Shown here piece after piece: positions 29,735 through 63,250 of a stretch of DNA of 64,000 bases. The translations under genes and the position numbers were made by a program. The DNA comes from Stylophora pistillata (lineage: Eukaryota): positions 11,092-75,091 of the forward strand of contig NW_019218013.1 in NCBI RefSeq assembly GCF_002571385.2, given 5' to 3'. Numbering within the stretch: the stretch's first letter is position 1; each line of letters opens with the position of its first letter. The notes under the pieces were generated by a model. It saw nothing but the letters and a program-made list of their open reading frames with translations, did not search any database and had not been told where the DNA came from.

Positions 29735-30454
29735 AAAACTATAAGGATGGTAAAGTTATCTACTATGTCTTTGAAATCAAACGTGATTGTGTTCTTCAGC
29801 TAGTGTAGTATACCACACTATAAGATATTCAAGATGTCTTTTCTGTGCAACGTTTCCAAAGGGCTTAAATCATTTTTCTTTCTGTGTGATTTCATAACTA
29901 ATAAAATCAAAATTGAAGCAGTAATAGTATTTGCATAACTATAAAATGTCCTTGAGAGCTACAACCAGTGTTAAAATTAGTGGACACATCATGTTTGAAT
30001 AGTTCTATTCATGTGCAGAATAACGCACCTGTTTATACCACACTTTAAATTATTGACAAGAACCCCCCCCCCCATTCATTGTTGCCTGTATGTAGCTAAA
30101 GATTCATGGAACCGCTATACAACTTTGTTTTGTATGGGGGCAGGGGAGCGAATAACTTAACTTAACAAGGACAAAAGAGATAAACTTGAAGTAAGACGGG
30201 ATTGAAAAGGTGGATGCGTCAACAATAATGTCGCTGCCTGTAGGTGGTGGGAGGAAGAACACAACATCTCAGTACAATATTATAAAATAAATCTGTATTT
30301 CATAGATAAATATCTGACAATAATCTTTGCGTTTCAATGAAACTTGTTCAATAAGGTTCGTTTCAAACGGATGTGCACTATCTATAACCTATTTAAACGT
30401 TATTGTTCATTCTGCTATTCCTTACTATGTTCAAAANACCTCAAACAGACTTAC

Positions 30455-33400: not shown

Positions 33401-36400
33401 AAAAGCGATAAAAATGACGTATTTCAACCCGACACTCGAACTGTCACGGTGCAGATTGAACGTGGTCCAGAAGAAAAAAAAAGAAAAACCGACCAAGAGG
33501 AAGATAAAATTAACAAGTGATGACAAAGACTTTACAAAGGCGTCTCGTCACAAGGTGACAAGATCGAAGTCTTTGGATGACACCGCGTTTGTCGCAACGA
33601 AGAACACTCGTCAACAACTGGCGCCTCAGAGAAGCAATTCAGTGCCAAATGGTTTAGCGGTTAAAATTGGCTCTCGCAAGAAATCTNNNNNNNNNNNGGG
33701 GAGGGAGATCCCCTGTAGCAACGATCAAGACTTAAATGTTCTCGAATTACTCAGTAAAAACACCCCAAGTTCCTCGTGAGTTACAAGGTCACTCATGACT
33801 CATTTAAATTTCACGATAATTGTTCGGAAATACAAACTGAACTTGTTCTAAGATTTTCTTCAAAACTCTATCTGTTGTTTCTCGTGGTAGCTTTTGTTGG
33901 CAGGGAGGGAGGGGTGGATGCCTTTTGTCAATGTGCGCCTGTAAATTACGCATAAAATGATATGTAAGAGAGTAAAGAGTAAGGTTCGTTCAAAGAAGGA
34001 GATGTAAAATGTAATTTTACTGTGACGAGTTCGTTATTATCTGCTGGGAGCATACGAAGTGATAATTAATCAAGACAAAAGCATATCATTACATGTATTT
34101 CATCCACCCAAAAAAACCTTTTTTGCTCTCTAAAAGATCTAAAAGCTAAGGTTGGACTCCTAGTAAAGCACTCGTCTGACAGATGTTTGCGTCATACTAT
34201 TGTAGTTAAAAAGCTGGATCTTACCTGCAAGTTCTCTCGTTTCTAACAATTTCCTCAGTTGCAACTCGATCCATTAAGAACTCCGGAGACAGCATAGGAA
34301 ACCGCACATTGCTCAGGATTTCAGCGGCAAATTTCTGTGAAAACAAAAAAAAAAAAAAGGATAAAGGAAAATCCCCTTACTGATTGTTACAACGTAGATG
34401 TATTGATTCATGTTATGTTTTTGATACTCATATCTATACTCTCTGGACGTGTAAACTAAAGCAAATTTAATTTGAATTGAATTGGATTAAAGTATTTGCA
34501 TGTTGGAAAATAAAATATTACTCTTCGACTGTGTCATAAAGCTAAACCAAAGAAATCACAACTGCAAGTCAAAAATAAATCTCAATAAGCAAACAAAAAT
34601 TGGATGTAAAAAGGAGCAAACTGCCTACAGCGAATCAAACTGCAAATGTCCAAGTTACGATTGCTTCTAATTTTAATACTGTTGCATTCAACAGCATGTA
34701 AAGAACTTTGTCCTTCGCTACTGTTTTTCGTGCCAGAATTAAATCGTTTCCTCAAAACTGCGGATCGAGATCCTCGAAACGTTCCTCGGACGCCCCGATT
34801 CTCGATCCCCGATTCTCGAAAGTTTCCAGGATCGAGCTTCGAGTCACGACTGTCAACTGTTGAGCGGCACTGTAATAACATAAAGGGCTGTGGTCTAACA
34901 GCACCCAGTGGCCCCGGGCGCCTTACTTTTGCTCTTGGGCGACTCAGAAATCTTAGTTTTTTTTATAAAAAGCATATGCTGGGCACCCTGGATTTCACAG
35001 TTTCTGGGCTGCCTTCGATTTTTCTTAGAGCACAGCCATGTCATAAATACCTCATTCCTCCCCACAATATCACCCCTAAATAACACATCAAGGTCTTAAG
35101 ACTACAGAAAATGATCACTAACTAAAGAAGCTCTTGATTGTGAAACAAATTCTCCCTGACTGTGTCAGTACCTTCGGAAATGTATAGAGAACAGTATGGA
35201 GAATATGCATACTGATGTTAGGGTGCTACAGTTCACAAAAGTTACCAGGCTACCTAAACCTAAAGCAAGTCATGTACACGTACGTACCTGTCTCCCATCC
35301 ACATCAAACTTGATCCAAGCTAATACAGCCTCAAAGACTCTTTCTTCAGACTGAGTGTTCAAGTCATCATCACGCAAAAGTCGTGTCAGCTGCCTGGAGG
35401 ATATTTCCATGAACTCCTCACTCTGAACAACATCAAGAAAGTGATATCGGGCAAATGATTCCGAGGACGTCACCAAATCTGTACAATTATGACGATCCGC
35501 AAAGGCACTGATCCCTAAGAACCAACAACAAAGTTATCATTGGTGTGATTACCTTCCTCTGATTGCGTTCATACCTCTAAACTTTAACCCTTTAACTCCC
35601 AGAAGTGATTAACAAGTAACTTCTCCCCATAAGATCCATACAATATCCAGCGAACAGGTAATGAGAATACCTAAACTTATCAGGTACAAGTTGTTATCTT
35701 GATCTAACATCAGATTCTCTTAACTCACTTACAAGGAAATGTGTAGCAATTAGAGGGGAGAATTAACAATTAGATCTTGGGTATTGAAGAGTTAACGCCT
35801 GAGGGTAAGACGCATTTGATCTCTTCCAACAGTATCACCCCTGAATCATACATCAAAAGGTAAAGAGAGAGTGAGGGAAATCATTGAAAAATCAAGGAAC
35901 TCTTGATTGTTCAACAGATTCTCTTTATAGGTACCATGAGAAATGCAAAGAGAACAGTGTGGAGACAATACTGCTTATGATTGCAGGGGTTTCATTCACG
36001 TTTTCAGCAGGAGGGCAACTGGTTTTCATAGGCGGGCAAACCTTTTTGAATCAGTGAACTTCATTATAAGATAAACTTCCCTCCTGATTGTCAAACCTGG
36101 TGGGCAAAATCATCCCCACAACTGGTCAATTTGCCTGGTGCCCAGGCCCTTAATGAAACCCCTGCAATTGATGTTAAAGTGTAAAGGGTTAACTCCTCTC
36201 TTAACAGATCTGTCTTTAAGACACAGTGATCTTCATGTGGTTGGTGCACCAAACTCTGAATTGAGAGACTCAGCCATGTAGACAATCTAGATCCTCTACT
36301 TACAATGCATGTACGTCCACACCAATTCTTCTGTGGTTAGCCGTGAGAGACAATGTGACATGTTACAGTGTACTTTGAAAGGCTATATGCAAATCTCAAC

Positions 36401-38925
36401 ATTAAGATCTCAACACGAAGTAAACCCACTTGTTTGCTGAATGTTAACTCCAACCCACACGAAGGGATAACAAATTGAAACTCTCCCTAACCGATTTATT
36501 TAAAATAAACAAACTACTTTGTCAATACTCTTGTGTCAGAACTCACCAAGGCAATTCTCTGAGCTCAGCTGTCTTTCGAGGAAATCACAACATGCTTTTT
36601 GTACAGACTGCACTTGTAGGATACAAGTCACTGGTAAAAGCTCTTGGACATTGCTCTCTGATATTTCAATTTCACCACTATAGAAGAAGTCCACAATAGC
36701 TTCCATGGCACTTTCATCAAGTTCTTGTAAAGTAACTGTGCTTTGTCGACTCTCTGAAAGGTCTCCTACGAAGAAACAATGAGGATTTCATTCTTATTAA
36801 TTCAGAACTGTCACAGACAACTGCACTTGTCTACAGTGTATGTCAGGAACTGGTTGCAGGTCTACATTTAGTTCATACATGTACAGGTGTATCTGCAAAG
36901 TAACAAACTGTTTACACCTGAACATCAATATGCATATTCTCCATACTGTCCTCTATACATTTCCTTAAGTGATGCCAAGGAAAATATGATTATCAATCAA
37001 AAGCTTCTCTATCTGATGATCATTTCCTTCACTACAGTACATGGTTTGAACCTGGGGCTAACGCGTGAAAATGTAGTGTGATTGTCCGGGTGTGTGTAGT
37101 CCTGAGAAGGTCTGTTGTTGGTGGTGGTGACTGACCTTTTGACAACCTGTGCAGAACTCATCATCAGAGTCAAGTGGATAGTTGTTTTCAGTAGAATGTT
37201 CTTAGTCCAGTTTGTGTAAAATGATCGCTCGGTTCTGCCATAATGTTATTGGCTGGAAGACTCAAGTAGTGTAAGTCAGTCATGATTGGTCTGTTTCAAC
37301 CTGTTTGTAAAGTTAGGTCGTTCTGTTCAGTTTGTTTGTAATGTTACTGTCCTGTCATTTGTATGAAGCCAGTAGTGGTTGACACCAATGTTGAGGGGAG
37401 TCTGTTCTAAGTTAGAAACCAGCTTTCCTTTATTCCTTTTTATTTTCTTTATTCTCCTGACCTTAATGTGAGATTCTGGAATGATATTCTTAGGAGAAAT
37501 TTGATGATGGTCAAGGGGTCAAAGGGTTTTATCAGAATTATCTGAACTGGAAGTGCTCTACCATAATTATTCCTTTGAAACATACCCATTCTAAATAATA
37601 TTGCTATTCTGAAGGTTCTGAGGTACATGTATCAGGCATATAATATTTGAATTACTTTGGATAAATTTACAAAAATATAACAAAATTCAGTGATAAACAT
37701 CCAATTTGAGTGCGTTGTTGCTATTCGCACAGCCCAAGGATCGACTAAAAATAAAAGGAAATAATGTGGCATATGTAACCCAAGCCATCCCATGCAAGTA
37801 CCATAATTTTTGCCATCTGCATTTGCACTTTGTTTTATCCCACAAAACCCCAGCAACAGGCATGTAAATACCCTCAAAAACTCTCAGTCAGATATAAAAA
37901 TTTTCAGTAATTGTTAATTCATTCATTTTTAAGTCAACTGAAAAAGATATTCTTGTTCTTTTTCTTTGCAAAGCAACTCTTACATGACTTTTTTGTAGCT
38001 GCTTATCACTGGCTTTATTGACCAGGGCTACAAAAGTAACTGCACTATGCCCACTACAGGCACAGTCTGAACACATGCTTCAGCAATGTGTTGCCTGTGG
38101 AACAAATTTATCCCTCAGGCGACAAATATTTAAAATCAAACTAGGTCGCAAGATTGATTATTTGGCCAGATCTAAATCTAATGCAAGGAAGCAAGAGTGC
38201 ATAACCACAGCACTTTCAAATTTAAGTTTTGAAGGATGAGGTTGCCACAGGTAATTAAAACAAAATAGCTATAAAACTTGGGTGCCAAAGGACTACCGGC
38301 CTCTTGAAGGCTGAGCGAGCATTCCAAGCGTGTTTTGAAAAGTATCCTGTGTATGCAATTTTTACACAACCGAACAGTGGATTACTTGAGTTATCTGATT
38401 AGGAACACAATTGAAACATAACTTTTGTTCCCCTTAGTGTATTTAATCTATTTCTTAAGGCAAAATAAAGTTATTTTGGAGATCAAGTTTCCATTTAGTA
38501 AGGCAAGTAAAGGTATTTTCTTTTCTTGAGCGAAAACAGTGGAAAGTTTATTGGCAACTCTAGCACATTACCCAACAAAGTGTGAAGTACTATCTACAGT
38601 AGTATGAAGGAACCAGACTGCCTTATAATGAAACCTCTGATAGCTAAATTTGCTAAGCACATGACTTACCAGTAAACATAGCTTTGAAATAGGGACTACT
38701 TGCAGCCAAAATAACTCTATGAGCTGATATACTGGTACTGCCCACCTTCAGTACTACATCACACAGGTCTTCATCTCCACGCAATGACTTCAGGGCAGTA
38801 ACCAGATCCTTACTGTGCGCAACATCAGCAAAAAGATATTGACGTCTTACAATGCTGCTCTCACTGTCACCTCGGTAAGGGCTATGTGCAAAGGATACAG
38901 GGGAGTTCCTATGAGGGGAAGCCAT
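30455..38925 (-). CDS. Kelch-like BTB-BACK-6xKelch protein. Coding exons 38925-38670, 36765-36547, 35514-35288, 34334-34225, 32971-32778, 32532-32326, 31625-31394, 30682-30455; last exon not found; probable 5' UTR exon ending at 41713
   Basis: BTB ([26 protein letters not shown]), BACK ([19 protein letters not shown]), six Kelch repeats (YAIGG..YDP..W..M..R); phases consistent at all junctions. Confidence 0.92.
33060..33786. mobile_element. Putative non-autonomous TIR element in a Kelch intron
   Basis: Ends TTGTCACTCGTGAG / CTCGTGAGTTACAA form an imperfect inverted repeat; internal tandem duplication GTAATTGACCTATTAAAGTTCGGAAAACC. Confidence 0.4.
34884..35040. mobile_element. MITE (second copy ~52476-52641)
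   Basis: Two similar copies; inverted ends GGCTGTGGTCTAA / TTAGAGCACAGCC. Confidence 0.65.
35584..35795. mobile_element. piggyBac-like TTAA MITE (related copies ~42610-42908, ~43930-44456, ~48197-48410, ~48895-49105)
   Basis: TTAACCCTTT...AAG(A/G)GTTAA termini; many diverged copies within the window. Confidence 0.65.
35984..36164. mobile_element. MITE with CAGGGGTTTCATT TIRs (inverted second copy 50134-50305)
   Basis: 13-bp TIRs in both copies and shared internal sequence. Confidence 0.75.
37070..37420 (-). mobile_element. Penelope-like fragment with degenerate hammerhead
   Basis: Minus strand TGACTCTGATGATGAG..GGTTGTCAAAAGGTCAGTCA..CAGGACTACACACACCCGGACAATCAC; GAAAC core mutated. Confidence 0.55.
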
Positions 38926-41900
38926 TGGGGAGCCTCTGTGAAGAGGACGGGAATCTACAGCCAAGACATAAAAGACAAAGAGACATCAGGCATTACGCAC
39001 ATATTATATCTCATGAATATGTTTTATCTAGACGTGCCAACAAAAGATATTTCATTTGAAAGTAAACATGTACATAAATAACAATTGATTCATTGTCACT
39101 GTGTGTCTGTTCTGAAGTAGACCACAAACCTGATGACATTAAAATGTGGTAAGTACAAAAGAGTAGCATGTGAGGCACAGCTGAGTGTGTCAGCAATTGT
39201 CTGAGCACATTATTACATTCTAATTGCAATCTACATGTATTACTAAACAAACCCACTGTAACATGGAATCTATCGTATTTCTCTCATCAAAATGAAGCAA
39301 AAAAGTTGCTTCATAAAGTTAATGCTCAATGTCACCCAGGTATCTGTCCTTCAACAGATCATAAAAACCAATCAAATAAGCGTGTAAGAAAGCTCATTAT
39401 ATAATTAGTAAAATAATATGGTCACTCTCTATTAAGAATGCACATGAATTCATGCAATTTCATCTCAAATTCTTGTGTTTGTTTGTTTAGCTTTCATGAT
39501 GTTGACACAATGTTCTAAGCCCTGTTCTTGTTTTTCAATCAATCCCCATTGTAAACTTCATTTTGGTATATTTTGGTTTTTGGACTGCCATCTCCCCAAA
39601 TATACAAATAAGTGATATAAATATATTACTTATAATTAGAAACTTTATTTGATTTACCACAAGTCTCCAGTAAGCGCATCTGAAATTTTCAATCAAAAGC
39701 TCCCAAAGGAACAAAAATAAACTCTTTAGAAGGAGAAATGCAGTCAAATAAAGTTATGAATTTTGACTATGATATAATTAAATTTAAGTATTTAGAGAAA
39801 GTACAAAGTCTTTCCAGGCTTACAGACCCTAACTGATTTGCACTTGGGCTACTAATGTTGTATACCCCATTTCTTTAAAAAAAAAATAAAGACAGAAAAG
39901 GTTGAGCCTAATTTAGACACTTTTCTGAGAGAAGAAAAGAAAAAATATACAACCAATGCTATAGATCCCCATTTAAATAAAAAGCAATGTTGGATTAACA
40001 GATCAGGGAACCATATAAGTCAACAACTAGCGGATTTGCACACCGCAAATCACTCCTTCATTTCCAGCGTAAGGTTAAAGTATATAAATGTTATGAGTAT
40101 GTTTTTGTTGTTGTTTCCACTTGTTAGCAATTTAAGAATTGTTTTCAGAGCATCTAAGAATCAGACAAAAAATACTCTAAACTAATCAAGCTTACAGCTT
40201 AAATGGAAAAATCACACATGTATTTAATTCTTGCTCCCTATGAAGTATTAAGTCTTGAATTCTTCAAAAAAATAAATAACACAGAATTTTAACAATATTA
40301 CCAATTCTCTATTTTGGTGAGAGTACTAAAATTTATGAATAGCTTGGTCTAACAGAAAAACATAATTTAAATTCCTATTCTTCTGGATGGCAAAAACCAT
40401 GGGTAATTATCATAAACAGAATCTTACCCCCAATCAATACAGGCTAAACTTACAACTTAGATCTTGCTTGAAATGTTTATTTAATATATGTTTGTTTTGT
40501 GATCAACAAACTGCTTGGATAAATTTATATGAAGGTCAAAAATACAAACCTTTGAATCTAAACATTGCCTGTTGCTATCAAGGTGAATGTGAACTATTTG
40601 GTGACTGCCCTCTTGTGAACACCAAAAATCATAAATATTTCAACAAAAATATAATTTTGCAATTTCACTCAGCTTATTCAAATTTACGGACTATAAATTA
40701 TTGAAATGCAATTTGCACGTGGAAATACAAGAAGATCTGCGCACCTCTCAAACAAAAAATGTGTTGCCAATTTTATCATGAACGGTGGGCAAGTTTATAC
40801 TTGCTGCATAAGTAAAAGTTCAAAAAAGTAACATTAGCCTGCCTATCAGTATAGAAACTGGCAGATGTTGATCTGCCCATGCAGAACTTTAGGAATTGAT
40901 AACAAAGGAACAAGAAAATTATTAGTTCGCTGGTGACGAAGGATTCGTGATTTTGATTCACTAAATTCGTGATCAAGGCCAATTGGAGCGGAAATGCTTA
41001 TTGAAGCGGAATGCTAGTTCATCCTAGATTAAAACAAAAAACACGAATAGTTTCGTATTTAATATGATAAAAATAATTTCCTATTTAGAGCAAAAAAGAG
41101 TATGTTTAAACGAATATTGTAAACGTGAATTAAGGATTTCATAAAGTCGTTGCCTAGTCGAAAAAATTTTCTTTGTACGTGCTCTGCTGTAGACCACCAA
41201 CTGCGAAATTCAAACAGTAATCATATCGAAATACGACAAACGTTCACATAGAACTTCTGATAAATTAAGCGTAAGTTTGTGCAACAATTTCTGACACAAA
41301 TACTCTTTACGGCAGGCAAGCATTTAGGATGACGACTCCAAATATAACGTTCATTTATTGATCTGAGAGACAACCCAGTTCAATTAAAGACCACCGGCTT
41401 GCTCAGACTCGGTACTTCCAAATCAAAAAATATCTTAGATTAACAAGCTCACTTTAAGGCGAAAAATACTTTCGCCATCCTAAGCACATAAAGAAATGTA
41501 TTATATCTGTACATTTCGAAAACGAAATGCCCACAGTCACACACAAGCGGAACATTACGCTGAAGTTAGCTTCCAATATTTAAAGACACTTCTAATTCTT
41601 GTTTCTGCCATGGTGCCAATTCAATCGCGTTATAAATCCAACTGTCCAAATCACATAAACATGTCGAAACTTACACAAGCATAAACACCAGTGCTAATAG
41701 GTCTACACTCACCAATAGACGCCGTTTTGAGATGTTTCAGGGGGAGCACTGCATAAAAAAAAATTATTTGATACAACTCCGCTCAGTCAGCAACTTCTTT
41801 ACAAGACCAAAGTTGAAAAGCAAAAGCTACGTCATCGATCGTCTGCCAAATTTGGAACGCGCCGCATTCTAGCATTTCCGGTCAGTCACGCAATAATGGA

Positions 41901-43161: not shown

Positions 43162-46100
43162 TTATACCAGCCTTCCAAGGTAAATTGACTTAGGAAAAAT
43201 TGTTTGAAGCTGTTTCCATTGAACAATAAAATAATCTGCAAAGCAGTACAATATTTTCCCTGATAATGATAGTGTCTTTACTCTGCAGATACTTTCAACA
43301 AACACCATGGTGATATCCCTTATACCAAAAACCTGAAAAAAGAAAGAAACAAACCAAAAAAATCACTCAATACAATATTTAGGTGCATAACGATCACCAC
43401 ATGTAAGTGCTAAAATGTATTTTTATTCATTGCTTTGTTTTACACAACATGAAAAAAAGAGAATTTTGACTGGAGAGGATGAAGTAATTATGAAAATTAC
43501 CACATTATCTGATTAGCACATCAATTTGTTATACATGTATATGTAAATGAAGATTGACACAAACTTTCTTACTTTTAAGGCAAAAGCTGCCACACAAATC
43601 GGAATGCATGTCCCTGGACCATTACACAGAATCTGGAGGGAAAAAAAACATTCTATCTTTAAATTAAAAAAATTGCATTGCAAAAGAGGTATTGCAAGGT
43701 ATTATACATTGTAGCTGACTTAATAGACTCAGAGGCTGTTCTGTTAAATAGCACCTCAGCACCTTAGGGAACTAAATTTTTTCTTGAGCAACCTATCTCA
43801 CTTTGCTTATGTGGAAGGTTTTGCAGTTTGGGACTACAGATTTTTTTTGGACAAAGGCACTCCGTGATTCTTCTGCGGGCATTAGTATAATGAGAAGAAC
43901 TTTATAAACATGCTGGAAAGCTTGATTCTCAACCCTTTCCACCCTAACATCAGTAAGTATATGTTGTAGGTCAATTTGTTCTTTAAGTAAATTTGTTTCA
44001 AACTAGGTCAATTTGATCTCAACCTAGATCAGTTGCTGATGTCTGTCTGTCTGTTTTTTTGTTTTTTTTTCGGCTGTGTTGAGATGTCTGAAAGGTCACT
44101 TATGGGAGGTTTGACTGTATTTTAAAAATAATTTCAGGTTCCAGACATCTCAACACAGCCAAAATAAAAACAGACAGACAGACAGACATCAGCAACTGAC
44201 CTAGGTTGAGATCAAATTAAGCTAGTTTGAAACAAATTTACCTAAAGAACAAATTGACCTACAACATATATTCTCCATACTGTTCTCTATATATTTCCTA
44301 AGGTGCTGACAAGGAGAATTTGTTGAAAAATCAAGAGTTTCTTTAGTTGGTGATCATTTCCTTTAATCTTGTGACCATAATGTTTGATTCAGAGGGTGAT
44401 ATTGTAAGGAATAAGTAGATGTTAGTCACGCTTGCTTGTAAAACTCAAAGGGTTGAATAAAATGCAGGGAAAGTCTGAACAGCTGCCAGAAAAGGCCACA
44501 TTGAACCTAAAGCCTTAACACCTAGCACAGGAAATCTTATTCTGTGGCAGGAAATACTTGTATCAAGTACTCACCAAATCTGGTTTCTCTTGTAACACAA
44601 CAGGAAATGAAAATGTCAAGGCATTTAAAGTTGTAAAGATTGTAGATAGCCACGATTGACTGACCTCTCTACTGCGTGGAATTTGAACAATTCTAAACTG
44701 TGTGAAAAAGACATAAATAAAAGTGTCTTAAGGGAGTTATGTTTTCATTCAATAAAGATAACTATGAAAATATAAAGATATCATTATTCTATGATATGAT
44801 TACATTGCATGTACCAGTACCTCTGATTTATTCTCATCTTCCTTGTTCTTGGATTTTTCAAAACTATCAATCTTGACTACACTCATTTTGTCCGTCTCAG
44901 CAACAATATAGATCCTTGGTTCATAACAAGAGGACAGTGACCCCATAAGTCTTAGCATCTCTGAAGTATGACCACCTGGAAAAAAAATGTAGCATGCTCA
45001 ATTTGGAGGTCAAAGGAAAAAGTGAAGGCTTAATTTCCTAGATGATTTGGTTTTATCAACTGAGTTGATAAGGTAAGTCAACCACTATGAAGAGTTTCCA
45101 AAGCTGATTTTTCAAGTGTTCACCCTTCCTCAGCACTTGAAACATCCTTCAATCATCTTGTAATACCCCCCACCAATGCAGCACCACAGTTTCTTTAGAC
45201 ACTTACCGCCCTTAATTCCTTAGAACATATCATGAATATATTGTAACCATTTTTAATACAATAGCACAGAGTCCAAGTGACTGGATCAGCAACACAATGT
45301 ACATTTAACCCTTTGAAACCCTGATCTAATGACTGATTCTCTTAAAAGCAGACCCTTATGGTTATCTATATCAAGACAAATGAAGTATCTTTGAAGGGAG
45401 AGGAAAAAGAAAAAGAAGGCATTCCCTGTCAAATATTTTCTTAATTCTCATTCTCACATTGTGGGGAGAATGGGGTACATTTCTGTACAGCCCCAAACTA
45501 GTTGAGTGCCTGGTATTGTTGTTCCTTTATTCTGTGTGTCTGTTTTTTTTTTATTTTTTTTCTAATTTTAATCCTAAATAATCAGTACCTAAATTACACC
45601 ATACAACTGAGAATGGCAAGTTATGCGATCATCTCCGTCTATAAACTGGAAGAACTTACACCACTGACGCAGTCTGTATATATTGTATGATTTAACGCCG
45701 TTAGTAAATGGCGTAAAATCCTACGGTATGTATAATACCAATGAGAAAAAATTACACCATTAGTTAGTGGTGTAAAATCATACACTTACAGTATAACAAA
45801 ATAGTCACATATGTGCATTATATCTATTCCATATAGCTGATGTCTCACTTTGTAAAATACGAGGAGCCTGTAGCTCGCATAAGCTTATTGGTTTCTCTAC
45901 AGGTTTCCTTACTACATGTTAAGTTTTCAGTTGTATTATATCAAATAAATGTGAATGTAATTCCTTTTATTAATACTGATGACTATTATAACTACAAAAT
46001 GGCAAAATAGACAAAAATAAATAAATACTATTTTAATTAAACAAAGCTATATCTCAAAGGCATCAGTTGTTTTTGCCATTGTTTTCTTTATACGAGAACA

Positions 46101-46527
46101 ATATGCAGAGTAAAAAATGGGGTTGTGCAGAAATCTTGCAGTAGAACGTACTAAATGATCATTCCAAGAAGAGAAAGGGTTCTTAATGATATTACATCTA
46201 CAGGTACACTGAATTACCGCTACCTTTATCTCTAAAATTCATGCTCATATTAAAATTAGATCAAAAATTGAAACAAAAATTCTGCTTATCTACTGACTTT
46301 TCAAAAAAATGAGAACTACAGGATCGATTCGGTAACACTTAAAACTTGAGGAACTTGTAGATAAGCATACCTGAGCCGGCAACCACCATGACTTTAACTG
46401 ACTTTCTCCTATCCAAAGGAACATGATTTCGTTTTTTCTTCAACACATATACGGTGCGAAGTATTAGTAAAGAAGCTAAGAAAAGAATCGCTGCCAAAGA
46501 TACGTAAAAAGTCGACCAGAAATCCAT
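43162..46527 (-). CDS. ALG14: UDP-N-acetylglucosamine transferase subunit ALG14. Exons 46527-46371, 44975-44821, 44697-44575, 43632-43573, 43332-43162
   Basis: N-terminal TM helix, VVAGSGGHTSEM, IPRSREVSQS, ILCNGPGTCIP, FVESICRV, VQW, terminal YLGRLV*. Confidence 0.96.
43962..44266. mobile_element. Fold-back element with ~130-bp inverted arms, TA-flanked, nested in a TTAA MITE
   Basis: TGTTGTAGGTCAATTTGTTC... / ...GAACAAATTGACCTACAACA; the host MITE resumes on both sides. Confidence 0.8.
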
Positions 46528-46735
46528 AATTTGATCGCAATTTCTTCAAAAGTCACGAAAAAGGTTATGAGCACCCAAACGATTAGGCATTGCCGCTGAA
46601 TGTATGTAGGCTCAAGAATTCTAGCGTGACACAAAATCATCCAGCTTGCCACGTGCCATGGATAACCATTTGTTTTTTCATAGTTGACCACGCATTTCGC
46701 CACACTACAAATATTCATGAGTGGATTTGTTTAAG
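46528..46735. promoter_or_regulatory. Bidirectional promoter region ALG14 / TLCD4
   Basis: Divergent ATGs are 208 bp apart; CACGTG E-box at 46650-46655. Confidence 0.7.
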
Positions 46736-49700
46736 ATGAATGGATATGGTAAGTGTCCCTTTCTTGAAGCACTCGCCTCAAGCTCTATTGCGCTTTGTTG
46801 TCGTTCAAATATCTTCTCGCGCCTGACGGATGTAAAGGAATTTTATCCTGATCGATCATTTCATCCTGATTGATCGCTCGAATGCGCAAGCTCTGAAGAG
46901 TGTCGTCTGCCATTTCGAGTGTTACTGATTTGTGCTTTTTATCGTATATGGGATATTGACATGTTCAGTCACCGTTGTGTGGGAGAGCTCGTTAACAGAC
47001 TCGACGTGTATACCTTCCACATTACTCCCCTCTTCGCTAAGTGGTCAGTTGAATGATGGCTTTTTTGTGGTCGGCCTACAAGAACGCGAAGAAGGTTGGA
47101 TGGTGTGAAATTTGGTGAACGGTTTGACAGTCGATGGAGGGAAGATACTACAGTATAATCCATCCAGCCCCACCTTTTTTCTCTGTTTTTGTTTGTTTTT
47201 CTGTTTGTGACAGTCGATGGAGGGAAGATACTACAGTATAATCCATCCAGCCCCACCTTTTTTCTCTGTTTTTGTTTGTTTTTCTGTTTGTTTTTCTGTT
47301 TGTTTTTGGCTTCATATACACCAAGGGTTGCTAGGTAATCCATTCTTTTAGACAGTCAGGGGCCAGAGTCACATTTGGGGTGGGGTACGATGGCGATAGA
47401 TGGTAAGATGTGATAGGTTTGGTGTGAAGAATCAGTGGTAAGGAGTTAGTGGTGAAGAGTGAGTTGTGATAGCTGAGGAATGAGAGATGTGTGGAAGTCA
47501 AATGGTATGATAACCGGAACACGAAACACTGACCATATCACACCTATTTTAAAGAGTCTACATTGGCTGCCACTCGAAGCAAGAGTTAATTTTAAGATAT
47601 AACTTATAACTAATAAGATCTTAAATGAGCAATCTACTAGTTATTTAGAACCTATTATACAAGAATACCACCCATCAAGAACACTGAGATCATCAACTCG
47701 CTTACAGTTATGCATCCCACCTTTTAAATCCAATTCCTATGGTGGACGCGCTTTTTCAGTATCTGCACCAAAACTATGGAACTCAATTCCCAAATATATT
47801 AAAAAGAGCAGAAACAGTAGAAACATTCAAAACTAGGCTTAAGACATTTTTGTTTAAAAAACATTACTGTTAATTAAGATTAGAAATGCGCCCTATAAGC
47901 ATCTATTTATTATTATTATTATTATTATTATGAAAGGGGTGAAGAATGAGGATACATGCTCAGAGGGTTGAGGGGTATGGCTACACAGGTGATACACTGA
48001 GGGGTAAGGAATGATGATGGAGGGTGACAAAATGGAATGTGGAAGCAAATGATGAGGAGTAGGGAATGACAGATGTAGGAAGAAAGGAACTTGGACATGA
48101 GAAAAAAAGTTAGAGAGGACGATGATGATGTTGATGATAATGATGGTGACGATGAAGAGGAAAAGTAAAAGTAACAGATGAAGAAGCCCTTCCCTGAACC
48201 CTTTAACTCCCATGAGTGAGCAGAACACAATAATTTCTCCTTATAACATTGATTCAATATCAAGCAGACTAAAATTATGACAGAAAATAAAAATATAAAT
48301 TAGGGGATTATAAGTTGATCCAAACCCTAATTCTTTTAATGGACATCATGAAAATTCTATGGGAGATGGTAAGGAGAATTACCAATAAAGCAAATGAGAT
48401 CTTTGAGGGTTTCTTTTTCTTCTTTTTTTTTAACTCAGTCTATGGTCTTTTTCTGGTGAATGATGCACAACCCCTCTGACAAAGTAAAGTTAGCTGTAAT
48501 GTATTTGTCATAAATCCTGGAATGAACTAAGCCAACCAAGAGTGGGTTAAATATACTTGTTGAGTCCTTGATATAAAATTAAGGTATGTCAATTTAACCT
48601 TTTTGTTCAAAACTAAATGTAATTTCATCGTTTGTTCTTAATCCCTTTCTTTTAGGTGCTGATGAACACAAGAAGGATTTGAACATTTTCAGTCTTTATG
48701 TGTATACATCAGCAGCCAGTTTTCTACTCTGTCTGACTTTATTTTATTTTGTGAGCCCAAGATTCTCAGCACGGATTTCCTCAGGATACTGTGGGCTCAG
48801 TGTCACCAAAAAAACTGACTGGGACACAAGGTTATACTGATTGTTATCACTACCAGACCTTCTATCATTTCTATAATTCCCTCTCCTTCCCCTAAAATCC
48901 TATAACTTTTAGAAGTGATGAATATGTAACTTCTCCCCACAAAATCCATATATTATCCAGCAAATAGATTATGAGAATATTCAATCTTATCAGATTAAAG
49001 TCGTTGTCTTTGTCTAACATCAAATTCTCAAAAACTAATTTAAAAGGAGATTTCTAGCAGCTGGAGGGTAGAATTAACAATCAGATCTTGGTAGTAAAAG
49101 AGTCAAGCCTTTATGATCTGTATGAAAGTGATCCTCTTCAATGCCTGTCAACTTTTTTCTCTTTCTTACTGCTCCTCCACATCCACAGTAGCTTGCAGTG
49201 CAATCAAACAAGTCATTTAAATACCATGGGTTTGGTAATATGTTCAGTGTTGTAAACTGTCTTTGACAAGCATACCACTCTTTCATAGCTCTCTCTCCAT
49301 TTTTCATCAGCTGTATTCTCATTCCACTTTTTATTTTCATTCAGCCTTTCCTTTTCTTATTTTCATTTATTTTCCTTCTTTTCCAACTCCATCCAAAATG
49401 ATGGTGTTGGACAATCGTGTTAGACAATCGTGTTCCCAAACAGTTTCCTTCTCTGAAAGGTAATAAATAATTGAATAGTTTAAATCTAAGAGAGTTTGCT
49501 GGCAAAGAAAAATTAATCCATTAGGTAAACCCCAAGATCTGACTGATAATTTCCTTCTCTAGCTGCCTCACATTTCCTTGTAAACAAACTGGCTATGATA
49601 ATTGATGTTTGATCATGATAGTTCCAATCTGATAAACAAACAATCAAAAGTGCCATTTGCAAGCAATGAAAAGTCTACATAGTAGGTAAAGGGGGATACA

Positions 49701-52700
49701 ACGTGTAGAGAACTTTGATGACCCTCTTTGGGAGGATAATATTAGTTTACTTTGTTTTATGGTACCTACATGTACAAATTACAGTACATGTTCATGAATA
49801 AAGTGTTGTCAGACAGAGGCGCAATCAATAAAAAGATCTATCAATAGGAAATAATATAATAACTGATAAATGAACCTCTGCATGGTAAGTAGAATTTTTC
49901 AAGTGTTTTTAACAAGCAGCTCTTCCTTTCTTGCAGGATTGGCTCAAATTTGCATGCAGTGGTTGTCAGCACAATCAGTTTGTATTGCTTCTTATTTGAT
50001 CCAGAGACAACATCCAATCCTATAAGGTACATTGCATTTCTTTATAAGCTAATTTGGTTGACTTTGCGATAATGATGATGAACTGTATTTAACAAGGATT
50101 CATAGTGTGAACTGATAAATTAATGGCCTTTAACAGGGGTTTCATTAAGGGCCGGGCACCAGCCAAATTGGTTGTAAGGACGGTTTTGCCCACCTGGTTT
50201 AACAATCTGGAGGAAGGGTTATCTTATAAAGAATTTAGTTCAAAAAGTTTTGCCCGCCTGTGAAAACCAGTTGCCCTCCTGCTGAAAATATTAATGAAAC
50301 CCCTGCTTTAACGAAGAATTAATGTATGTAGAAAACACGTGTAAAATGGTTGACATTGTATAATTTAAGTATATATACAGTCAAACCTTGATTATGTGGA
50401 CTTGTGGGGACTGGGCTGAAAAATTAGAAATCAAAAGTCAGGACAATCAAAAGTATGGCTATTAATAAGCCAAAAATAAAACTGAATACCAATATTAGGC
50501 AAAAGGTTAAGGTGCATTCTCAAATCACTGTGCATCATTGCCAAAATTTGTTAATTGAAAGTATTTACAAAATAAATTTTACAACAATGATGTTTTACAA
50601 CCTAAATAGCTGTGGGTCGAAGTAGCTACAGCATGTGCAGGTAGCTAATTCTTTCATTCTTTGAAGTTGGGTGAATGGAAAAAGTCATTGCATATCTCTA
50701 ATTAAAAAATGGGAGGGTAGAGGTGAGTGTTGTTAATCAAAGATCGGGATAATGGAAGACTGGATAATCGAGGCTATACTGTATTTGTAAAATCATCATT
50801 TTTTGCAAATACGTTTGCTGCAGTTCTCTTCCTTTCTTTATAGAAATGATGGTGTTTTAGTGAGAGTGGGGGTAGCCATTACATTAGGGTACATTTTAGC
50901 AGGTAATTGACTTTGTATAATTTATGCTTTGAATATTATGTTGCAATAGTACAAATATTGGAATACCTGGTAACTCTCTGTGAGCCTATTCCTGCGGGCT
51001 GGCTGGTCTTGGTTTTGAACATGTTTCCATTTACTTCATGATATATGTGATGTCAATTTTTTTTCTGTTAATTTCTCTTGATTGTAGCAGTGACTAATTC
51101 CTCAGACTGAATAAAGTACAATTTGACTTTGGCATGAAACACAATGAAAGTTTGACAATACAAAGTTCCTCAGGGGCACTTGCAATCACAATTATTTTGA
51201 AAAGGGATGGCCATATGGCTCCAAGATTTTTGGCAACTCGCATTATAAGGGCATTTGTGGATGTGAACTGTAATGGAATCCATGAAGTATTCCAAAGTAT
51301 CACAGTGCTTGCTAGTATTGCTCCCATGGTGCAACATGATATGATTCTCAACCATGCATGTGACTGATCTTTGTAATGGCTTCTACACTTATTAATCTGT
51401 TTACATTTACTTGCCATGTTCTTTCCTCTCAACTTAAACAAATCAACAGCACTCAAGTCAGAAATTAACTAGACCTCTAGTTTGCCAGAAATAAACAATC
51501 AATCTATCAGAAATATACTTTATAGATGTGAACCATTTTTGTGCACAAGGTTCAATTGATACATCGTAATTGTAGCTCTCACTGCTTTTATATTTACATC
51601 TTCATGTTGATTGTTTCAGATTTCCTTATCATAGTTTGGTCCTATAAATACATAGGAGATTTGTTCACTTTGGTTCACCACCTCATGGCAATATCAGCAT
51701 ATTATTTCGTTGTGGTAAGACTGGTGTACGCTTTCTACATGCATGTGATCAAAGGCTTCTTTGTATATGAATGCACACATACTTAAATGCAAACTTTTTA
51801 GTTATTGTTTGAAAAACAAACAAACAAAATTATCATGGTGATTTTAGTCCCCACAAAAGTAAGATACATCTACTGGCAACAAATGTAACATTAGAATACC
51901 TTTGGTTAATAAAACTTTTAGTCTATAGCTGAGAAGTAATAAATACTATTTTAATCTGTAGTAGTTGGTCTTATAGTGATCAATGAATAGTCCCAAAGGT
52001 CAACATGTACATGCAGCTTCATTTACATGTAGGTAGTAAGGGATCAATTTGCCTTTGTAGGTCAATGGGGTTTTGCCTTATTTTGCTAATGTCCGTCAAC
52101 TTGCAGAGATCTCCACACCATTTGTGAATCAGAGGTTAGTTTGCTTGAAAATTCCTTTGCTGGAAATTACCTTTTCTACATTCTATTCTACATGTAGGGC
52201 TAACATCAGATTTTCTGTCTAAATTTACATTTCCATGTCTACACATGGTGGTAACTCTTCTGCTATCACATGGTTAGGATTTTCTCCTTCCATTTCCTTT
52301 CATTTTGTCCATCTGTTGCTTTTCCTAAACTTCTGAGACCTTCCAACTGAAGGTTGATTAGTCTAATTGGTCTTAGCTACAGCAGTCAGTCTCGGCCAGG
52401 GGGACTGCCTATGGAGGAACTGTCAGTAACTTTTTCTTACCCCCCTATGTGGTAAGAAAAACAGTTACACACTCCAGGGTTGTAGTCTAGCAGTGCCGGG
52501 TGGCCCAGGCACCTTCCTTTTGCTCTTGGGTGACTCAAGAATCTTAGTTTTTTTCATACAACGTATAATGGGCACCCTGGATTTCACAGTTTCAGAGCAC
52601 TGGGCTCCCTTGAGTTCAATTTTTCTCAGAGCGCAACCATGCATTCAGCGGTACCTAACATGAGCCACTTTTTTGCACTTACCACATTTTTAAGTCTTCT

Positions 52701-53141
52701 GTGAACTATTACTGATTGGAGGCACAAAAACATTGAATCTAGTTGTTGAGATTATTTTGCTCACACTCATGTACCTTTTTGTTTGATGTCTTCACATGTT
52801 GATACCTTTTCTTTTCTTTTTTTTTTATTTTATACTTCTTTGCCTCCCAAAGGTGGTTTTTTGATGCTATTGGTCATCCCAGGTCATCTAGCAGCTTCGT
52901 CATCAATGGTTATGTGATGGGGGCTTCCTTCTTCTTCTGCCGCATACTAATGATGCCCATTTACTATTACAAGTGTTATTTGGTTTGGGGAAGTGATGAG
53001 CAACAGCAGCTGGGTGCACTTATTAATTTTTACTGGATTTCTACTTGCATTGTGCTGGACATAATAAACTTATATTGGTTCACCAAGATAGTAAAGGGTG
53101 CAATGAAGCTGACTCGAAAGCTTAAAGATTGTAAAGACTGA
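46736..53141 (+). CDS. TLCD4: TLC-domain protein TLCD4/TMEM56-like. Exons 46736-46748, 48656-48830, 49937-50026, 50844-50902, 51620-51714, 52061-52134, 52853-53141
   Basis: DWDTRIGSNLHA, GYILADF, HH, EISTPFVNQRWFFD, FFFCRI, LDIINLYWFTKIVKG; phases consistent. The 13-nt first coding exon is less certain. Confidence 0.88.
47125..47290. repeat. Direct tandem duplication (~83 bp x2)
   Basis: TGACAGTCGATGGAGGGAAGATACTACAGTATAATCCATCCAGCCCCACC... appears twice in tandem. Confidence 0.85.
47521..47930 (+). mobile_element. L2-type LINE 3' fragment
   Basis: DHITPILKSLHWLP..RVNFKI..GGRAFSVSAPKLWNSIP..FKTRLKTFLF with stops, followed by an (ATT)n tail. Confidence 0.88.
50388..50781. mobile_element. TA-flanked Tc1/mariner-type MITE (deleted copy ~61358-61454 in the TLCD4 duplicate)
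   Basis: TA-CAGTCAAACCTTGATTAT ... ATAATCGAGGCTATACTG-TA. Confidence 0.65.
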
Positions 53142-59568: not shown

Positions 59569-60989
59569 AATTTTTATGCGGTAATAAATATTAAATTTAC
59601 TAGACCTCGCTCTCGTTAAACATTTCCTTTGCATAAAATGATTATCTTATAAGCTAGCCACCTGTTACTCGACAAATACGTATGCGATTTGTAAAAATAC
59701 ATTTGTATGTCAGGCAGATTATGAACACAGTTTTTGCACATTCTAGCCAGCTCAAGTGAAAATATCTCTCGGCTCTTACTCTCAACCAAAACAAAAGGTA
59801 TATTTATAGTTAAAAATTATGTCGACGACAAAAATATACGTACACATGCATTCCCACTTCTAAGCTCACCCCCACAAAAAATTGCAAATGCATATGAAAG
59901 AAAATAATCCTTTCCTGTTTGGCTTTCAGCGACATAATTTGCCTGACAGTCCGATATAGAAACCAATTATGCGAAACAGTATAATTATATTGGATCTAGA
60001 AATTTGACTAAAAATTGTCTCCATGTCGTGGTTGTTCATGCAATAAGATTATTGCAACATTTGGTCACATGAGCAATACTTGCGGAACTTGGCTTCGGAG
60101 TTGTATAAATTCCTGAAAGGCAAAGAAAGTTAAAATGTTTCATTTAGTCAACATAGTCATCGGAGATCGAGATCATTGCTTAAAACATTGTCCATCGTTC
60201 TGTTCTGCAGAACTCAGTCAAACATCTTTAGTTATATGAGGTAGAATAAGCGAGCAAGAGTGGACCGTTTTAGTTTACAAGTTGCAATAAAAGAATTTTG
60301 CAGCAGCTTGAATAATAAGCAAATTTCAAAGAGTTGTGTATAAATCAGTGGAGGGGAGACGTCCAAGCCTTATGGCACAGAGGGATTTTAAAAGATTAAG
60401 GTATGGTGCATAAATCAGTCAAACGTGACTTGTACATGTTTATAGATTTTGACGTCTCACTAAAATGAATTTTGTTTGGCAGCATGTTTTAGGTCGTTTA
60501 TAGATATGTCGAGCAAATACGCTGGCTTGTCACGCAAATAACATTTCCAAAAGAATATACACGTAATTATAGCACCATCGTGAGACATAAACGACGCGTT
60601 ACAAGTATAATAAAACAATTGCTAAATACGATAGATTTCCACCCACGATCCGCTATTCCAGTACGGGTTTCAAACTTAATCTGGTCTTGTCTCTAGAACG
60701 CATTTTAATTTCAAAGTCAACAGTTCTTTCAACAAAAAAGAAATTTTATGGCGCTATCATTTTGAAACTATGTTGTTCGAATTCTCAGCACGAAAACTCT
60801 TTATCGGAGCCACTTACGAAATTATTCCATTAACAGCGTTGTGTGTGTGTGTGGACAGGGGTTAGAAAAATAGGAGTCAACAAAAGTTCACTGTCACCCA
60901 AGGAGAAGTTAACCACTCAGTCTTTCAATTAGTTCCAGGTCATTGATCCTTTAATATCATAATGATTGCATGTACATGTACATGCATGT

Positions 60990-62500
60990 ATTAAGGGTTG
61001 CCTGAGAGAGGCACAATCACTAAAAAATCTATAGGAAAATTATATTGAATAAATGAACCTCTTCATAGTAAGTAGAAATTATTTATAATTACCTCCCCCT
61101 TTTCTGCAGGACTGGCTGAAATTTGCATGAAGTGGTTGTGAGCGCAATCAGTTCATATTGCTTCTTATTTCATGCAGAGACAACATCCAATCCTATCGAG
61201 TACGTTGCCTTTCTTTGTAAGCTAATTTTGTCAACTTCTTGATGAGGATGATGAACTGTTTTAGACAAGGATGCATATAACAGTGTGAACTGATAAATCA
61301 ATGGGCCTCAACAAAAAAAAATGTATTGAACAGTCAACATTGAATAAAACTATACACAGTCAAACCTGGATCATGTGGACTCGTGGGGACTGGGCTGACT
61401 AATCGAAAAACTCAGACAGTTGAAGTCTGGATAGTCGAGGTTCAACGTTAACTGTACTTGTAAGATCATCAGATTTAAATTGTTTGCTTCAATTCTCTTC
61501 TTCTTTTCTTTATAGAGATGATGGTGTTTTAGTGAGAGTCGGGGTAGCCATTACATAGGGTACATTTTGGCAGGTATATGACTTTATATTATTCTAATGC
61601 AATAGTACAACTGGCGGGCTGGCTGGTCTTGAGGTTATGGACAACTTTCCCGCTTCTCCGAGTTTCCAACTCACTTCAACTTTGTCAGTAAGTCTCAGAC
61701 TGCCCGGGGTGGAAATGTCAGTAATTGCGAAGAAAATCTCCACTCTATGTGATAAGGATATCAGTGACATACTCAACTGCACCTAATGTGAGCAACTCTT
61801 TTGCCCCTTGTAGTGTATTGAGAACATAGTAAAAGTACTTGTACTGATGTTAGTGATATTACTGTAAGATTACTGAATAATGTGAAAGGACTGTTATCAA
61901 GTAAGACTATTGTACTAGCTTATAAGACACTTGATCAATGAATAAAGACAGAATATAGTAAGCAACTGAAGAGTGTGCGTTTACTAAATATTTCCTAATG
62001 GATGCACAACAACATGGAATCTACTTGTTATGATTATTTTATGCACACTCTCGTACCTTTTTGTTTGATTTCTTCACATGTTGGTATGTTTTCTATTGGT
62101 CATCCAAGGTCATCTAGCACTGTGCTTCGTTATCAATGGTTATGTGATGGGGGCTTCCTTCTTCTTCTGCCCTATAAGATAGTGTTGTTTGGTTTGGAAA
62201 AAGGTAATGAAGCTGACGCAAATGCTGAAAGTAACTTAAAAAGACTGACAATGAAATATCTAAATGCGGAAAAACTAGATATTTGTTAAATCATCTGATT
62301 TTTTTGCAATTTGTGTTAAAATTTTTGTTGCTACTCACCCAAACTGAGTTTTCTTTTCTGTTGTGATTCTTTTACTAAATACTTTCTGTGGAAAAAGATG
62401 AAACTGTTCATAATTTGACTAGTTATTGTCAAACAGTCCAAATTTCGGATGAGCACTTTTTTTTAATTGTTTTAACTTAAAAGTCAGTAAGATAACATTT
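60990..62500 (+). pseudogene. Partial unprocessed duplicate of TLCD4 (copies of exons 3, 4, 7 and 3' UTR)
   Basis: Exon and flanking intron similarity to 49805-51010 and 52762-53410; 1-nt deletion in exon 4 (~61556); exons 5-6 missing; exon 7 acceptor and internal segments deleted. Confidence 0.9.
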
Positions 62501-63250
62501 TTGTCGACACCTAATAGTCTACACTGGGTGGGATGCCATTCCATTGCAAGGTAACCCCTGGGCAGCATTTCATATGCTACCCTGACTATTCCCTGATACC
62601 TAATTACACCCTAGGGAGGAGATAAGCATTGTCAGGATAAAGTATTTTGCGCAAGATGACACAATTAGTCGACCAGGTTTACTGACCTGGAGTCCGGCAT
62701 ACTGACCGTAGGGCTGCTGCCTCTCCTTTATAATTAAACATGTAACATGACACTAATTTTCCGCGCAGGGAGTTAAAAATCTTCTAAAAATGCTTCTTTT
62801 GGTGTACAAATGTTTATCGCGATGCACATGTTCCTTAATATTCTTTATCTGTACCAAGGGTGAGCAAGATCTTGAGGACATGATTGTCAACTGGAAATTG
62901 ACACCAATCGATAAAATGCTATTGAAAACATTGGTAATTATAAGCGTTGACAATTTGCATATTTTCAAGACTTGATGAGTCCAATAAAACACCAAAAGTA
63001 ATAAAGAACATCTCTAAATGACATTCCTTTGGTCCACACCACATTAAGTATTTATTGCTTTTTTTCAATTAATTGATAAATTATCATGCCTAAAGTTAAG
63101 TTAATTTGGTATACTATACAATTATATTAAATCGTAATCGGGATAAGATCTAAGTAGCAAAACCTTACATTGGTCCTTTCGTTTGGCCATCTTACAAAAC
63201 AAGGAGGTGGATTTTCTTTGTCTTGTTAAAAAAACCTCTCATTAGGAATT

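What the first reader, a model, noticed from the sequence alone, without database searches (positions are those of the whole stretch)
43162..53141. ALG14-TLCD4 head-to-head pair matches human gene order
Seen: ALG14 (-) and a TLCD4/TMEM56-like gene (+) diverge with ATGs 208 bp apart. Known: human ALG14 and TLCD4 are adjacent and divergently oriented at 1p21.3. Inference: an ancient microsynteny predating the cnidarian-bilaterian split, perhaps held by a shared promoter co-regulating two ER-membrane proteins, hinting at a functional link for the poorly characterised TLCD4.
Basis: partly seen in the sequence, partly recalled or inferred. Interest (0 to 1): 0.7.

Follow-up and report, generated by a model that had tools for sequence, protein, structure and literature searches.

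The report
Old back-to-back ALG14-TLCD4 gene pair
In a stony coral the sugar-chain gene ALG14 and the lipid-enzyme gene TLCD4 are transcribed back to back, with RNA reaching to within tens of bases of each other; they appear to be neighbours in ten other corals and are neighbours in mammals, so this is likely one more of the hundreds of ancient animal gene pairs, probably held together by a shared promoter rather than by cooperating proteins.

Summary
Observation confirmed. ALG14 (5 exons, 221 aa, minus strand) and a TLC-domain gene (7 exons, 264 aa, plus strand) diverge, with 208 bp between ATGs; the TLC protein equals an NCBI Stylophora pistillata TMEM56-like record. Stranded RNA reads on both strands come within about 30-60 bp. 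The gene is the TLCD4 orthologue: sole match of bat TLCD4 in this genome, with intron positions matching break points in vertebrate-like gene models; the tree alone is unresolved. Accession numbers are neighbours in 10 of 10 other corals; mouse and cattle gene lists show the pair adjacent. A rough null gives about 1-3 x 10^-4 per pair, so ancient linkage is likely (about 80%). No intermediate lineage was shown to keep it, and the one amphioxus record lists other neighbours. The functional hint is unsupported: mammalian TLCD4 is mainly Golgi and binds CerS2, and the human starts are, by recall, 20-45 kb apart. This is a new member of a known kind (conserved ancestral microsyntenic pairs). The scan noted similar pairs on other DNA, not this one.

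The parts
43162..46527 (-). ALG14, 5 coding exons, 221 aa, single copy
   Evidence: Spliced model intact; Pfam PF08660; exon 1-2 splice in 4 and 9 reads and one contig
46528..46735 (.). 208-bp interval between ATGs holding both 5' UTRs and the likely shared promoter; contig ends at 46604 (ALG14 side) and 46632 (TLCD4 side) leave 27 nt
   Evidence: Stranded reads and contigs; CpG observed/expected 0.97-1.1 here against 0.26 and 0.23 in the two gene bodies
46736..53141 (+). TLCD4/TMEM56 orthologue, 7 coding exons (13, 175, 90, 59, 95, 74, 289 nt), 264 aa, keeps H69, D113, H132, H133, E160, R199
   Evidence: PF03798; splice 1 and splices 4-6 read; only match of bat TLCD4 in the genome; invariant columns; CLN8 alignment
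30454..38976 (-). BTB-kelch (KLHL-type) gene directly downstream of ALG14; third member of a block kept in stony corals
   Evidence: Pfam BTB and Kelch; Desmophyllum P0074 and Porites lobata P0300 gene models fuse ALG14 to this same gene, best segments 67-96% identical
60973..62505 (+). Decayed partial tandem copy of TLCD4 (exons 3, 4, part of exon 7, intron pieces, 3' UTR), 75-92% identical, with stops
   Evidence: blastn and tblastn

Best explanation
ALG14 and the coral TLCD4 orthologue are two separate genes transcribed in opposite directions, likely from one short shared promoter, and their pairing is probably inherited from the common ancestor of cnidarians and bilaterians. Shown: both genes are intact, spliced and expressed, and RNA from the two strands comes within tens of bases. 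Inferred: with two start sites packed this closely, a rearrangement break between the genes would damage both, so the pair persists for structural reasons while outer neighbours change (KLHL in corals, CNN3 and RWDD3 in mammals). Inferred: the proteins work separately. ALG14 is the membrane anchor of the Alg13/Alg14 GlcNAc transferase (established knowledge), and TLCD4 is predicted to be a TLC-family lipid acyltransferase with an intact His/Asp/Glu/Arg site.
For: RNA (X21 17 reads, X22 0, X24 22, X3 4 contigs): in X21 ALG14-strand depth ends by 46593 and TLCD4-strand depth starts in bin 46615-46635; X3 contigs cover 46369-46604 and 46632-46750; in X24 one or two ALG14-strand reads run on over TLCD4 exon 1. 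CpG is kept only at the shared 5' region: o/e 1.1 in 800 bp, reached by 15 of 279 windows, against 0.23-0.26 in the gene bodies. Orthology: 4 of 4 matches of bat TLCD4 (P0155, named) in the genome are exons of this gene; 43% full-length identity against 23% for the intronless paralogue; 22 of 55 break points in 49 vertebrate-like models (of 160 hits examined) fall within 2 residues of a coral intron, random mean 5.0, 1 of 20000 draws as high. Linkage: ALG14 and TLCD4 accessions are 1-10 numbers apart in 10 of 10 corals with both, from both the robust and complex clades. Mammals are adjacent. A toy null gives 0.04-0.18 chance-shared head-to-head pairs per coral-human comparison, whereas 595 ancestral pairs are known, at least 378 from the eumetazoan ancestor, and 54.8% of the human ones are 5'-5'.
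Against: No intermediate lineage was shown to keep the pair. In Branchiostoma lanceolatum ALG14 is listed in a block with TEK-like, two PTPRA-like and an FCH-domain gene, with no TLC gene, although amphioxus has TMEM56. Read counts at the promoter are low, one of three raw runs gave none, and RNA-seq ends are not mapped start sites. The careful tree leaves deep nodes open, and AU tests do not reject grouping with this genome's other TLC genes (p 0.16-0.47, one a 37%-filled fragment). Accession neighbours show neither orientation nor spacing. If the human starts are 20-45 kb apart (recall), a shared core promoter cannot explain retention in mammals.
Confidence: 0.7

Rival explanations
1. Independent adjacency: the two genes stayed on one ancestral linkage group and became head-to-head neighbours separately in stony corals and in vertebrates.
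For: The only intermediate record (amphioxus) lacks the pair. No flanking gene is shared with mammals: none of 9 RWD-domain matches lies on this contig. The pair was not found in any ancestral-pair table I could read, though those tests were weak.
Against: About 1-3 x 10^-4 per pair under within-linkage-group shuffling, against hundreds of truly ancestral pairs. Loss of such pairs in single lineages is common.
Confidence: 0.14
2. Functional coupling: the pair is kept because TLCD4 works with ALG14 in or beside dolichol-linked glycan assembly in the ER and needs co-regulation.
For: Very tight divergent starts in the coral. Both are secretory-pathway membrane proteins acting on lipids. TMEM56 shows a weaker ER signal and changes hexosylceramide levels.
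Against: TMEM56 is mainly Golgi; named interactors are CerS2 and HACD3, and ALG14 is not among those named in the passages read (the list of 150 is not shown). Its expression is enriched in haematopoietic stem and erythroid cells. Only 8.5% of conserved human bidirectional pairs are functionally related by GO. None of 33 metagenome TLCD4-like loci carried ALG14, but most are transcripts or look non-animal.
Confidence: 0.1
3. Mis-assigned orthology: the coral gene belongs to another TLC subfamily, or is one of several co-orthologues, so the match to human order is only apparent.
For: The careful tree is unresolved and the AU tests are not significant. Nematostella has two TLCD4-like genes.
Against: Reciprocal best match with bat TLCD4; shared intron positions; the genome holds separate TLC genes on C83, C59, C117 and C824, and the C824 gene has its intron five residues further on. 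The quick tree joins anthozoan, vertebrate, amphioxus and snail TLCD4 at SH-aLRT 89.
Confidence: 0.04

Closest known systems
Conserved ancestral microsyntenic pairs (CAMPs), 5'-5' co-regulation class; Irimia et al. 2012, PMC3514665 (abstract, first third of Results and Methods read; supplements not readable)
   Same: Two unrelated genes, head-to-head, short intergenic distance, shared between a cnidarian and vertebrates.
   Different: CAMPs need linkage in four or more lineages; only two (stony corals, mammals) are shown here. Whether this pair is among the 595 could not be checked.
Mammalian RWDD3-TLCD4(TMEM56)-ALG14-CNN3 locus, human 1p21.3 (table or text passages in PMC4204525, PMC12567842, PMC12561425, PMC5453326)
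   Same: ALG14 and TLCD4 are direct neighbours; the TMEM56-RWDD3 read-through implies that the TLCD4 5' end faces ALG14.
   Different: Outer neighbours differ (KLHL and a TPR gene in the coral; no RWD match on this contig). Spacing is tens of bases in the coral against 20-45 kb in human (recalled).
TLCD4/TMEM56 within the TRAM-LAG1-CLN8 family (PF03798); TLCD1 and CLN8 acyltransferases (PMC11838012, passages), TMEM56 (PMC13147617, abstract, section 8, passages)
   Same: TLC domain, ceramide-synthase-like fold (TM-score 0.65-0.70 to yeast and human CerS), H133 and R199 aligned to CLN8 H139 and R204.
   Different: No substrate has been shown for TLCD4 in the papers read; nothing was tested for the coral enzyme.

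Membership tests
CAMP (Irimia 2012) | Two non-paralogous protein-coding genes adjacent in the focal genome | tested here: met
   Alg14 and TLC domains, no gene between them
CAMP (Irimia 2012) | [quoted passage not shown] | tested here: met
   Bat TLCD4 is a reciprocal best match; mouse and cattle lists place Tmem56/TLCD4 next to Alg14
CAMP (Irimia 2012) | Linked in at least four major lineages | tested here: inconclusive
   Two lineages shown. The amphioxus row shows other neighbours, from a cut table whose rows may not list every gene. Other lineages could not be reached.
Bidirectional promoter pair | Divergent transcription starts under 1 kb apart | tested here: met
   ATGs 208 bp apart, strand-specific reads on both sides
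Bidirectional promoter pair | Shared cis-elements drive both directions; correlated expression | not testable with these tools
   Needs CAGE, reporter assays or many RNA runs; three raw runs per lay are too few
Bidirectional promoter pair (human counterpart) | Human starts under 1 kb apart | tested here: inconclusive
   ALG14, TMM56 and TMEM56 absent from the 927-row table of conserved human pairs under 1 kb, but my control term HSPE1 was absent too; the second list was not held. Recall says 20-45 kb.
TLCD4/TMEM56 orthogroup | Reciprocal best match with vertebrate TLCD4 | tested here: met
   Top vertebrate library hit is bat TLCD4; 4 of 4 reverse matches are this gene
TLCD4/TMEM56 orthogroup | Shared exon-intron structure | tested here: met
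   22 of 55 break points within 2 residues of coral introns 2-6 (1, 2, 6, 7 and 6 per intron; intron 2 rests on one), 1 of 20000 random draws. Indirect: vertebrate genomic DNA was not read.
TLCD4/TMEM56 orthogroup | Supported clade with TLCD4 to the exclusion of other TLC subfamilies | tested here: inconclusive
   Quick tree SH-aLRT 89; careful tree unresolved, AU p 0.16-0.47; no named TLCD1/2/3/5 or CLN8 rows were available
TLC-family acyltransferases | Active-site His, Asp, Glu, Arg kept | tested here: met
   D113, H132, H133, E160, R199 invariant in 28 of 28 rows; H133 and R199 align to CLN8 H139 and R204; H69, D113 and E160 match TLCD1 H54, D98 and E145 by spacing (inference)
TLC-family acyltransferases | Acyl transfer to a lipid acceptor | not testable with these tools
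   Needs purified enzyme or knockout lipidomics
ALG14 | N-terminal membrane segment plus PF08660 domain, single copy | tested here: met

The most novel reading that the evidence does not exclude
The pair is a eumetazoan relic whose regulatory tie changed form: a promoter of a few dozen bases shared in corals became, in mammals, a long-range arrangement in which elements in or near ALG14 control TLCD4. The human variants labelled 'ALG14' that shift plasma phospholipid palmitate and stearate (rs2391388, rs6675668) would then act through TLCD4, identifying it as a saturated-acyl phospholipid remodelling enzyme conserved since cnidarians.
Probability: 0.15. Interest if true: 0.6.

Novelty: new member of a known kind. 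Interest (0 to 1): 0.27.

Why it matters
As it stands it adds one likely member to a list of about 600 ancient gene pairs and gives a very compact natural two-way promoter candidate for coral work. It does not tell what TLCD4 does. It would matter more if the linkage pointed to TLCD4, not ALG14, as the effector of the human fatty-acid association at this locus, which can be tested with existing eQTL and lipidomics data.

Tried and rejected
Irimia 2012 supplements: not readable. Davila Lopez 2010 (PMC2871058; passages and 6 supplement files): no Alg14 row, but the metazoan Table S4 was too large to read and my control term failed, so this is weak. Zimmermann 2023 (PMC10719294) supplements: 13,838 characters, no hit, one file unread. 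Chen 2021 head-to-head list (PMC7817982): control HSPE1 absent, no test. PMC5453326 supplements: no hit, 5 files not searched. Robert 2022 (PMC8851819) file 4 is cut at 4.0 million characters; ALG14's orthogroup occurs once, and the Exaiptasia and Acropora TLCD4 accessions not at all; its blocks need three genes. Human coordinates were not found in print; one GWAS paper id was not held. PMC13500770 holds nothing on TLCD. Metagenome scan: 33 loci, none with ALG14, most are transcripts or look non-animal, so uninformative for animal gene order. RWDD3 as a third conserved neighbour: rejected, 0 of 9 RWD matches on contig C230, counts being lower bounds. Long TLCD4 models (snail P0151 and others) carry no second family. 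Four alternative ATG-plus-donor candidates in intron 1 were listed; only 46736 has a splice seen in the output, but 101 joints were not displayed. The ESM Atlas only repeated the TLC family. No complex prediction was run, since neighbouring genes alone do not justify one. Not-in-print claim: searches for ALG14 with TMEM56 (2 papers) or TLCD4 (2 papers), and two wider ones, found only gene lists and no paper on this synteny; supplements are not covered by those searches and may list the pair.
Full report
Observation. Splicing the window at canonical GT-AG sites gives an intact 221-aa ALG14 on the minus strand (46527 to 43162) and an intact 264-aa TLC-domain protein on the plus strand (46736 to 53141), with 208 bases between the ATGs. 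Pfam confirms both. The TLC protein is identical to a named NCBI record, Stylophora pistillata TMEM56-like isoform X1, so the window is stony-coral DNA. ALG14 is single copy (3 of 3 matches). The genome holds other TLC genes on four further contigs (8 matches in all).

Transcription. Four runs were laid on 46300-46900: X21 gave 17 reads, X22 none, X24 22 reads, X3 four contigs. Strandedness is controlled internally, since ALG14 exons carry first mates on + and TLCD4 exons on -. In X21, ALG14-strand depth ends by 46593 and TLCD4-strand depth begins in bin 46615-46635. X3 contigs cover 46369-46604 and 46632-46750, leaving 27 nt. In X24, TLCD4-strand reads begin in bin 46657-46677, while one or two ALG14-strand reads run on to about 46806, over TLCD4 exon 1. 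The first splice of each gene is read directly, as are TLCD4 introns 4-6 (9-25 reads per raw run; 101 further joints were not displayed). Read ends are lower bounds on UTR length, not mapped starts, and counts are low, but there is no room for two widely separated promoters. CpG observed/expected is 1.1 over the 800 bp around the starts (15 of 279 windows reach this) and 0.23-0.26 in both gene bodies. This fits an unmethylated promoter between two body-methylated housekeeping genes (inference).

Orthology. The best vertebrate hit in a 1.84-billion-protein search is P0155, named bat TLCD4/TMEM56. Searched back into this genome, all 4 matches are exons of the window's gene. Identity is 43% over the length, against 23% for the intronless paralogue on C117. 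Truncated vertebrate-like gene models betray intron positions. Of 160 hits examined, 49 were vertebrate-like and gave 55 break points; 22 lie within 2 residues of coral introns 2-6, against a random mean of 5.0, reached in 1 of 20000 draws. The mouse knockout floxes a 'frameshifting exon 5' of a gene with exons 7 and 8, which fits the 59-nt exon at that rank (inference). Trees are weaker. A quick tree (112 rows; 98 of 146 new library hits kept for length) joins anthozoan, vertebrate, amphioxus and snail TLCD4 at SH-aLRT 89. A careful tree of 39 hand-picked rows leaves deep nodes open, and AU tests do not reject grouping with this genome's other TLC genes (p 0.16-0.47). I take orthology as well supported by the reciprocal match and the introns, not by the tree. 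The predicted structure (pLDDT 91) best matches ceramide synthases (TM-score 0.65-0.70, E 0.005-0.03). D113, H132, H133, E160 and R199 are invariant in 28 of 28 rows; H133 and R199 align with CLN8 H139 and R204, residues tied to catalysis or disease in TLCD1 and CLN8. An acyltransferase activity is therefore predicted, not shown.

Linkage in corals. With no other animal genome searchable, I compared accession numbers. TLCD4 and ALG14 are 1 apart in Acropora muricata, Montipora capricornis, Porites harrisoni and Desmophyllum pertusum; 2 apart in A. millepora and P. lobata; 3 apart in A. palmata, A. cervicornis and M. foliosa; and 10 apart in Orbicella faveolata. Sixteen or more species had a TLCD4 number but no ALG14 number and are untested, including all sea anemones and the octocoral. 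In Desmophyllum and P. lobata the ALG14 model is fused to the same KLHL gene that follows ALG14 in the window, so TLCD4 must lie at the ALG14 5' side there (inference). The block spans robust and complex corals, split at least 245 million years ago (PMC5730576, start of abstract in the listing).

Linkage beyond corals. Mouse lists Rwdd3, Tmem56, Alg14, Cnn3 and cattle the same; human has a TMEM56-RWDD3 gene at 1p21.3, which points the TLCD4 5' end at ALG14. That human ALG14 runs the other way, and that the starts lie about 20-45 kb apart, is recall. Outer neighbours are not shared: no RWD match lies on this contig. The only intermediate datum is against conservation. In Robert et al. 2022, Branchiostoma lanceolatum ALG14 sits in a block listed as TEK-like, PTPRA, PTPRA, ALG14, FCH-domain, although this species has TMEM56. 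The table is cut and may not list every intervening gene, so this is weak. A toy shuffle within 29 ancestral linkage groups, with assumed parameters, yields 0.04-0.18 chance-shared head-to-head pairs per coral-human comparison, 0.8-2.8 x 10^-4 per pair. Against that, Irimia et al. count 595 ancestral pairs, at least 378 dating to the eumetazoan ancestor, with 54.8% of human ones head-to-head and even amphioxus having lost some. Ancestry is thus much the likelier reading; I put it near 80%, held down by the missing intermediates and the recalled human strand.

Mechanism. The simplest cause is structural. Two start sites within tens of bases leave almost no place for a harmless break, so the pair persists while flanks turn over (inferred). 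A functional tie is not needed and has little support. Mammalian TMEM56 is mainly Golgi, binds CerS2, alters hexosylceramides and is enriched in blood stem and erythroid cells, whereas ALG14 acts on the ER face in N-glycan precursor assembly (established knowledge). Only 8.5% of conserved human bidirectional pairs are related by GO. What keeps the pair in mammals, if the starts have moved apart, is unexplained: inertia, or regulatory elements within ALG14. The latter is the bold reading. Two variants labelled ALG14 shift plasma phospholipid palmitate and stearate, a trait that suits a TLC acyltransferase better than a GlcNAc transferase subunit. I did not test this.

Verdict. The pair is real and expressed, probably shares a promoter, and is probably ancient, but it is an ordinary member of a catalogued class. 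Searches found no paper on this particular synteny; unread supplements, above all Irimia Table S2, may already list it. Earlier notes of this scan describe several comparable pairs in other genomes and none on this pair; I had fetched Irimia 2012 before seeing them.

Noticed in passing
window 60973-62505 (+): Decayed partial tandem duplicate of TLCD4 (exons 3, 4, part of 7, intron pieces, 3' UTR; 75-92% identity; stops and deletions), about 8 kb downstream, upstream of a TPR exon on the opposite strand.
   Followed up: partly
window 30454-38976 (-): KLHL-type gene behind ALG14; gene models in Desmophyllum and Porites lobata fuse the two (P0074, P0300). Probably prediction artefacts, but they show the tandem is conserved; read-through was not tested.
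   Followed up: partly
window 46900-47400 and 48202-48546 (+): TLCD4-strand reads and contigs inside intron 1, with molecule ends near 48461 beside a GT donor at 48457: possible alternative 5' exons or retained intron. Acropora records list several N-terminal isoforms.
   Followed up: no
window 46658, 46717 (+) and 46590 (-): Upstream ATGs in both 5' UTRs; read by eye they open short frames of 9, 5 and 14 codons, the second ending just before the TLCD4 ATG.
   Followed up: no
window 46594-46824: In run X24 one or two ALG14-strand reads extend across TLCD4 exon 1, hinting at overlapping 5' ends.
   Followed up: no
window 58834-59646 (-): TPR-repeat exon of 270 codons; next gene after TLCD4, convergent.
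   Followed up: no
window 18271-19170 (+): DUF4470 domain frame among repeats; reverse-transcriptase-like frames at about 10244-11930 (recognised by eye).
   Followed up: no
G000 C59 (L003, L006, L008), C83 (L001, L007), C117 (L002), C824 (L005): Other TLC genes of this genome: two similar ceramide-synthase-like genes on C59, one on C83, an intronless TLCD5-like gene and a TLCD3-like gene (labels from recall of motifs).
   Followed up: partly
P0151 (Nucella lapillus), P0051/P0150 (Nematostella): The snail model holds two TLC domains in tandem and Nematostella has two TLCD4-like genes: lineage-specific duplications.
   Followed up: no
human 1p21.3, PMC6890658 table: rs2391388 and rs6675668, labelled ALG14, associate with plasma palmitic and stearic acid; neighbouring TLCD4 is a plausible effector.
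   Followed up: no
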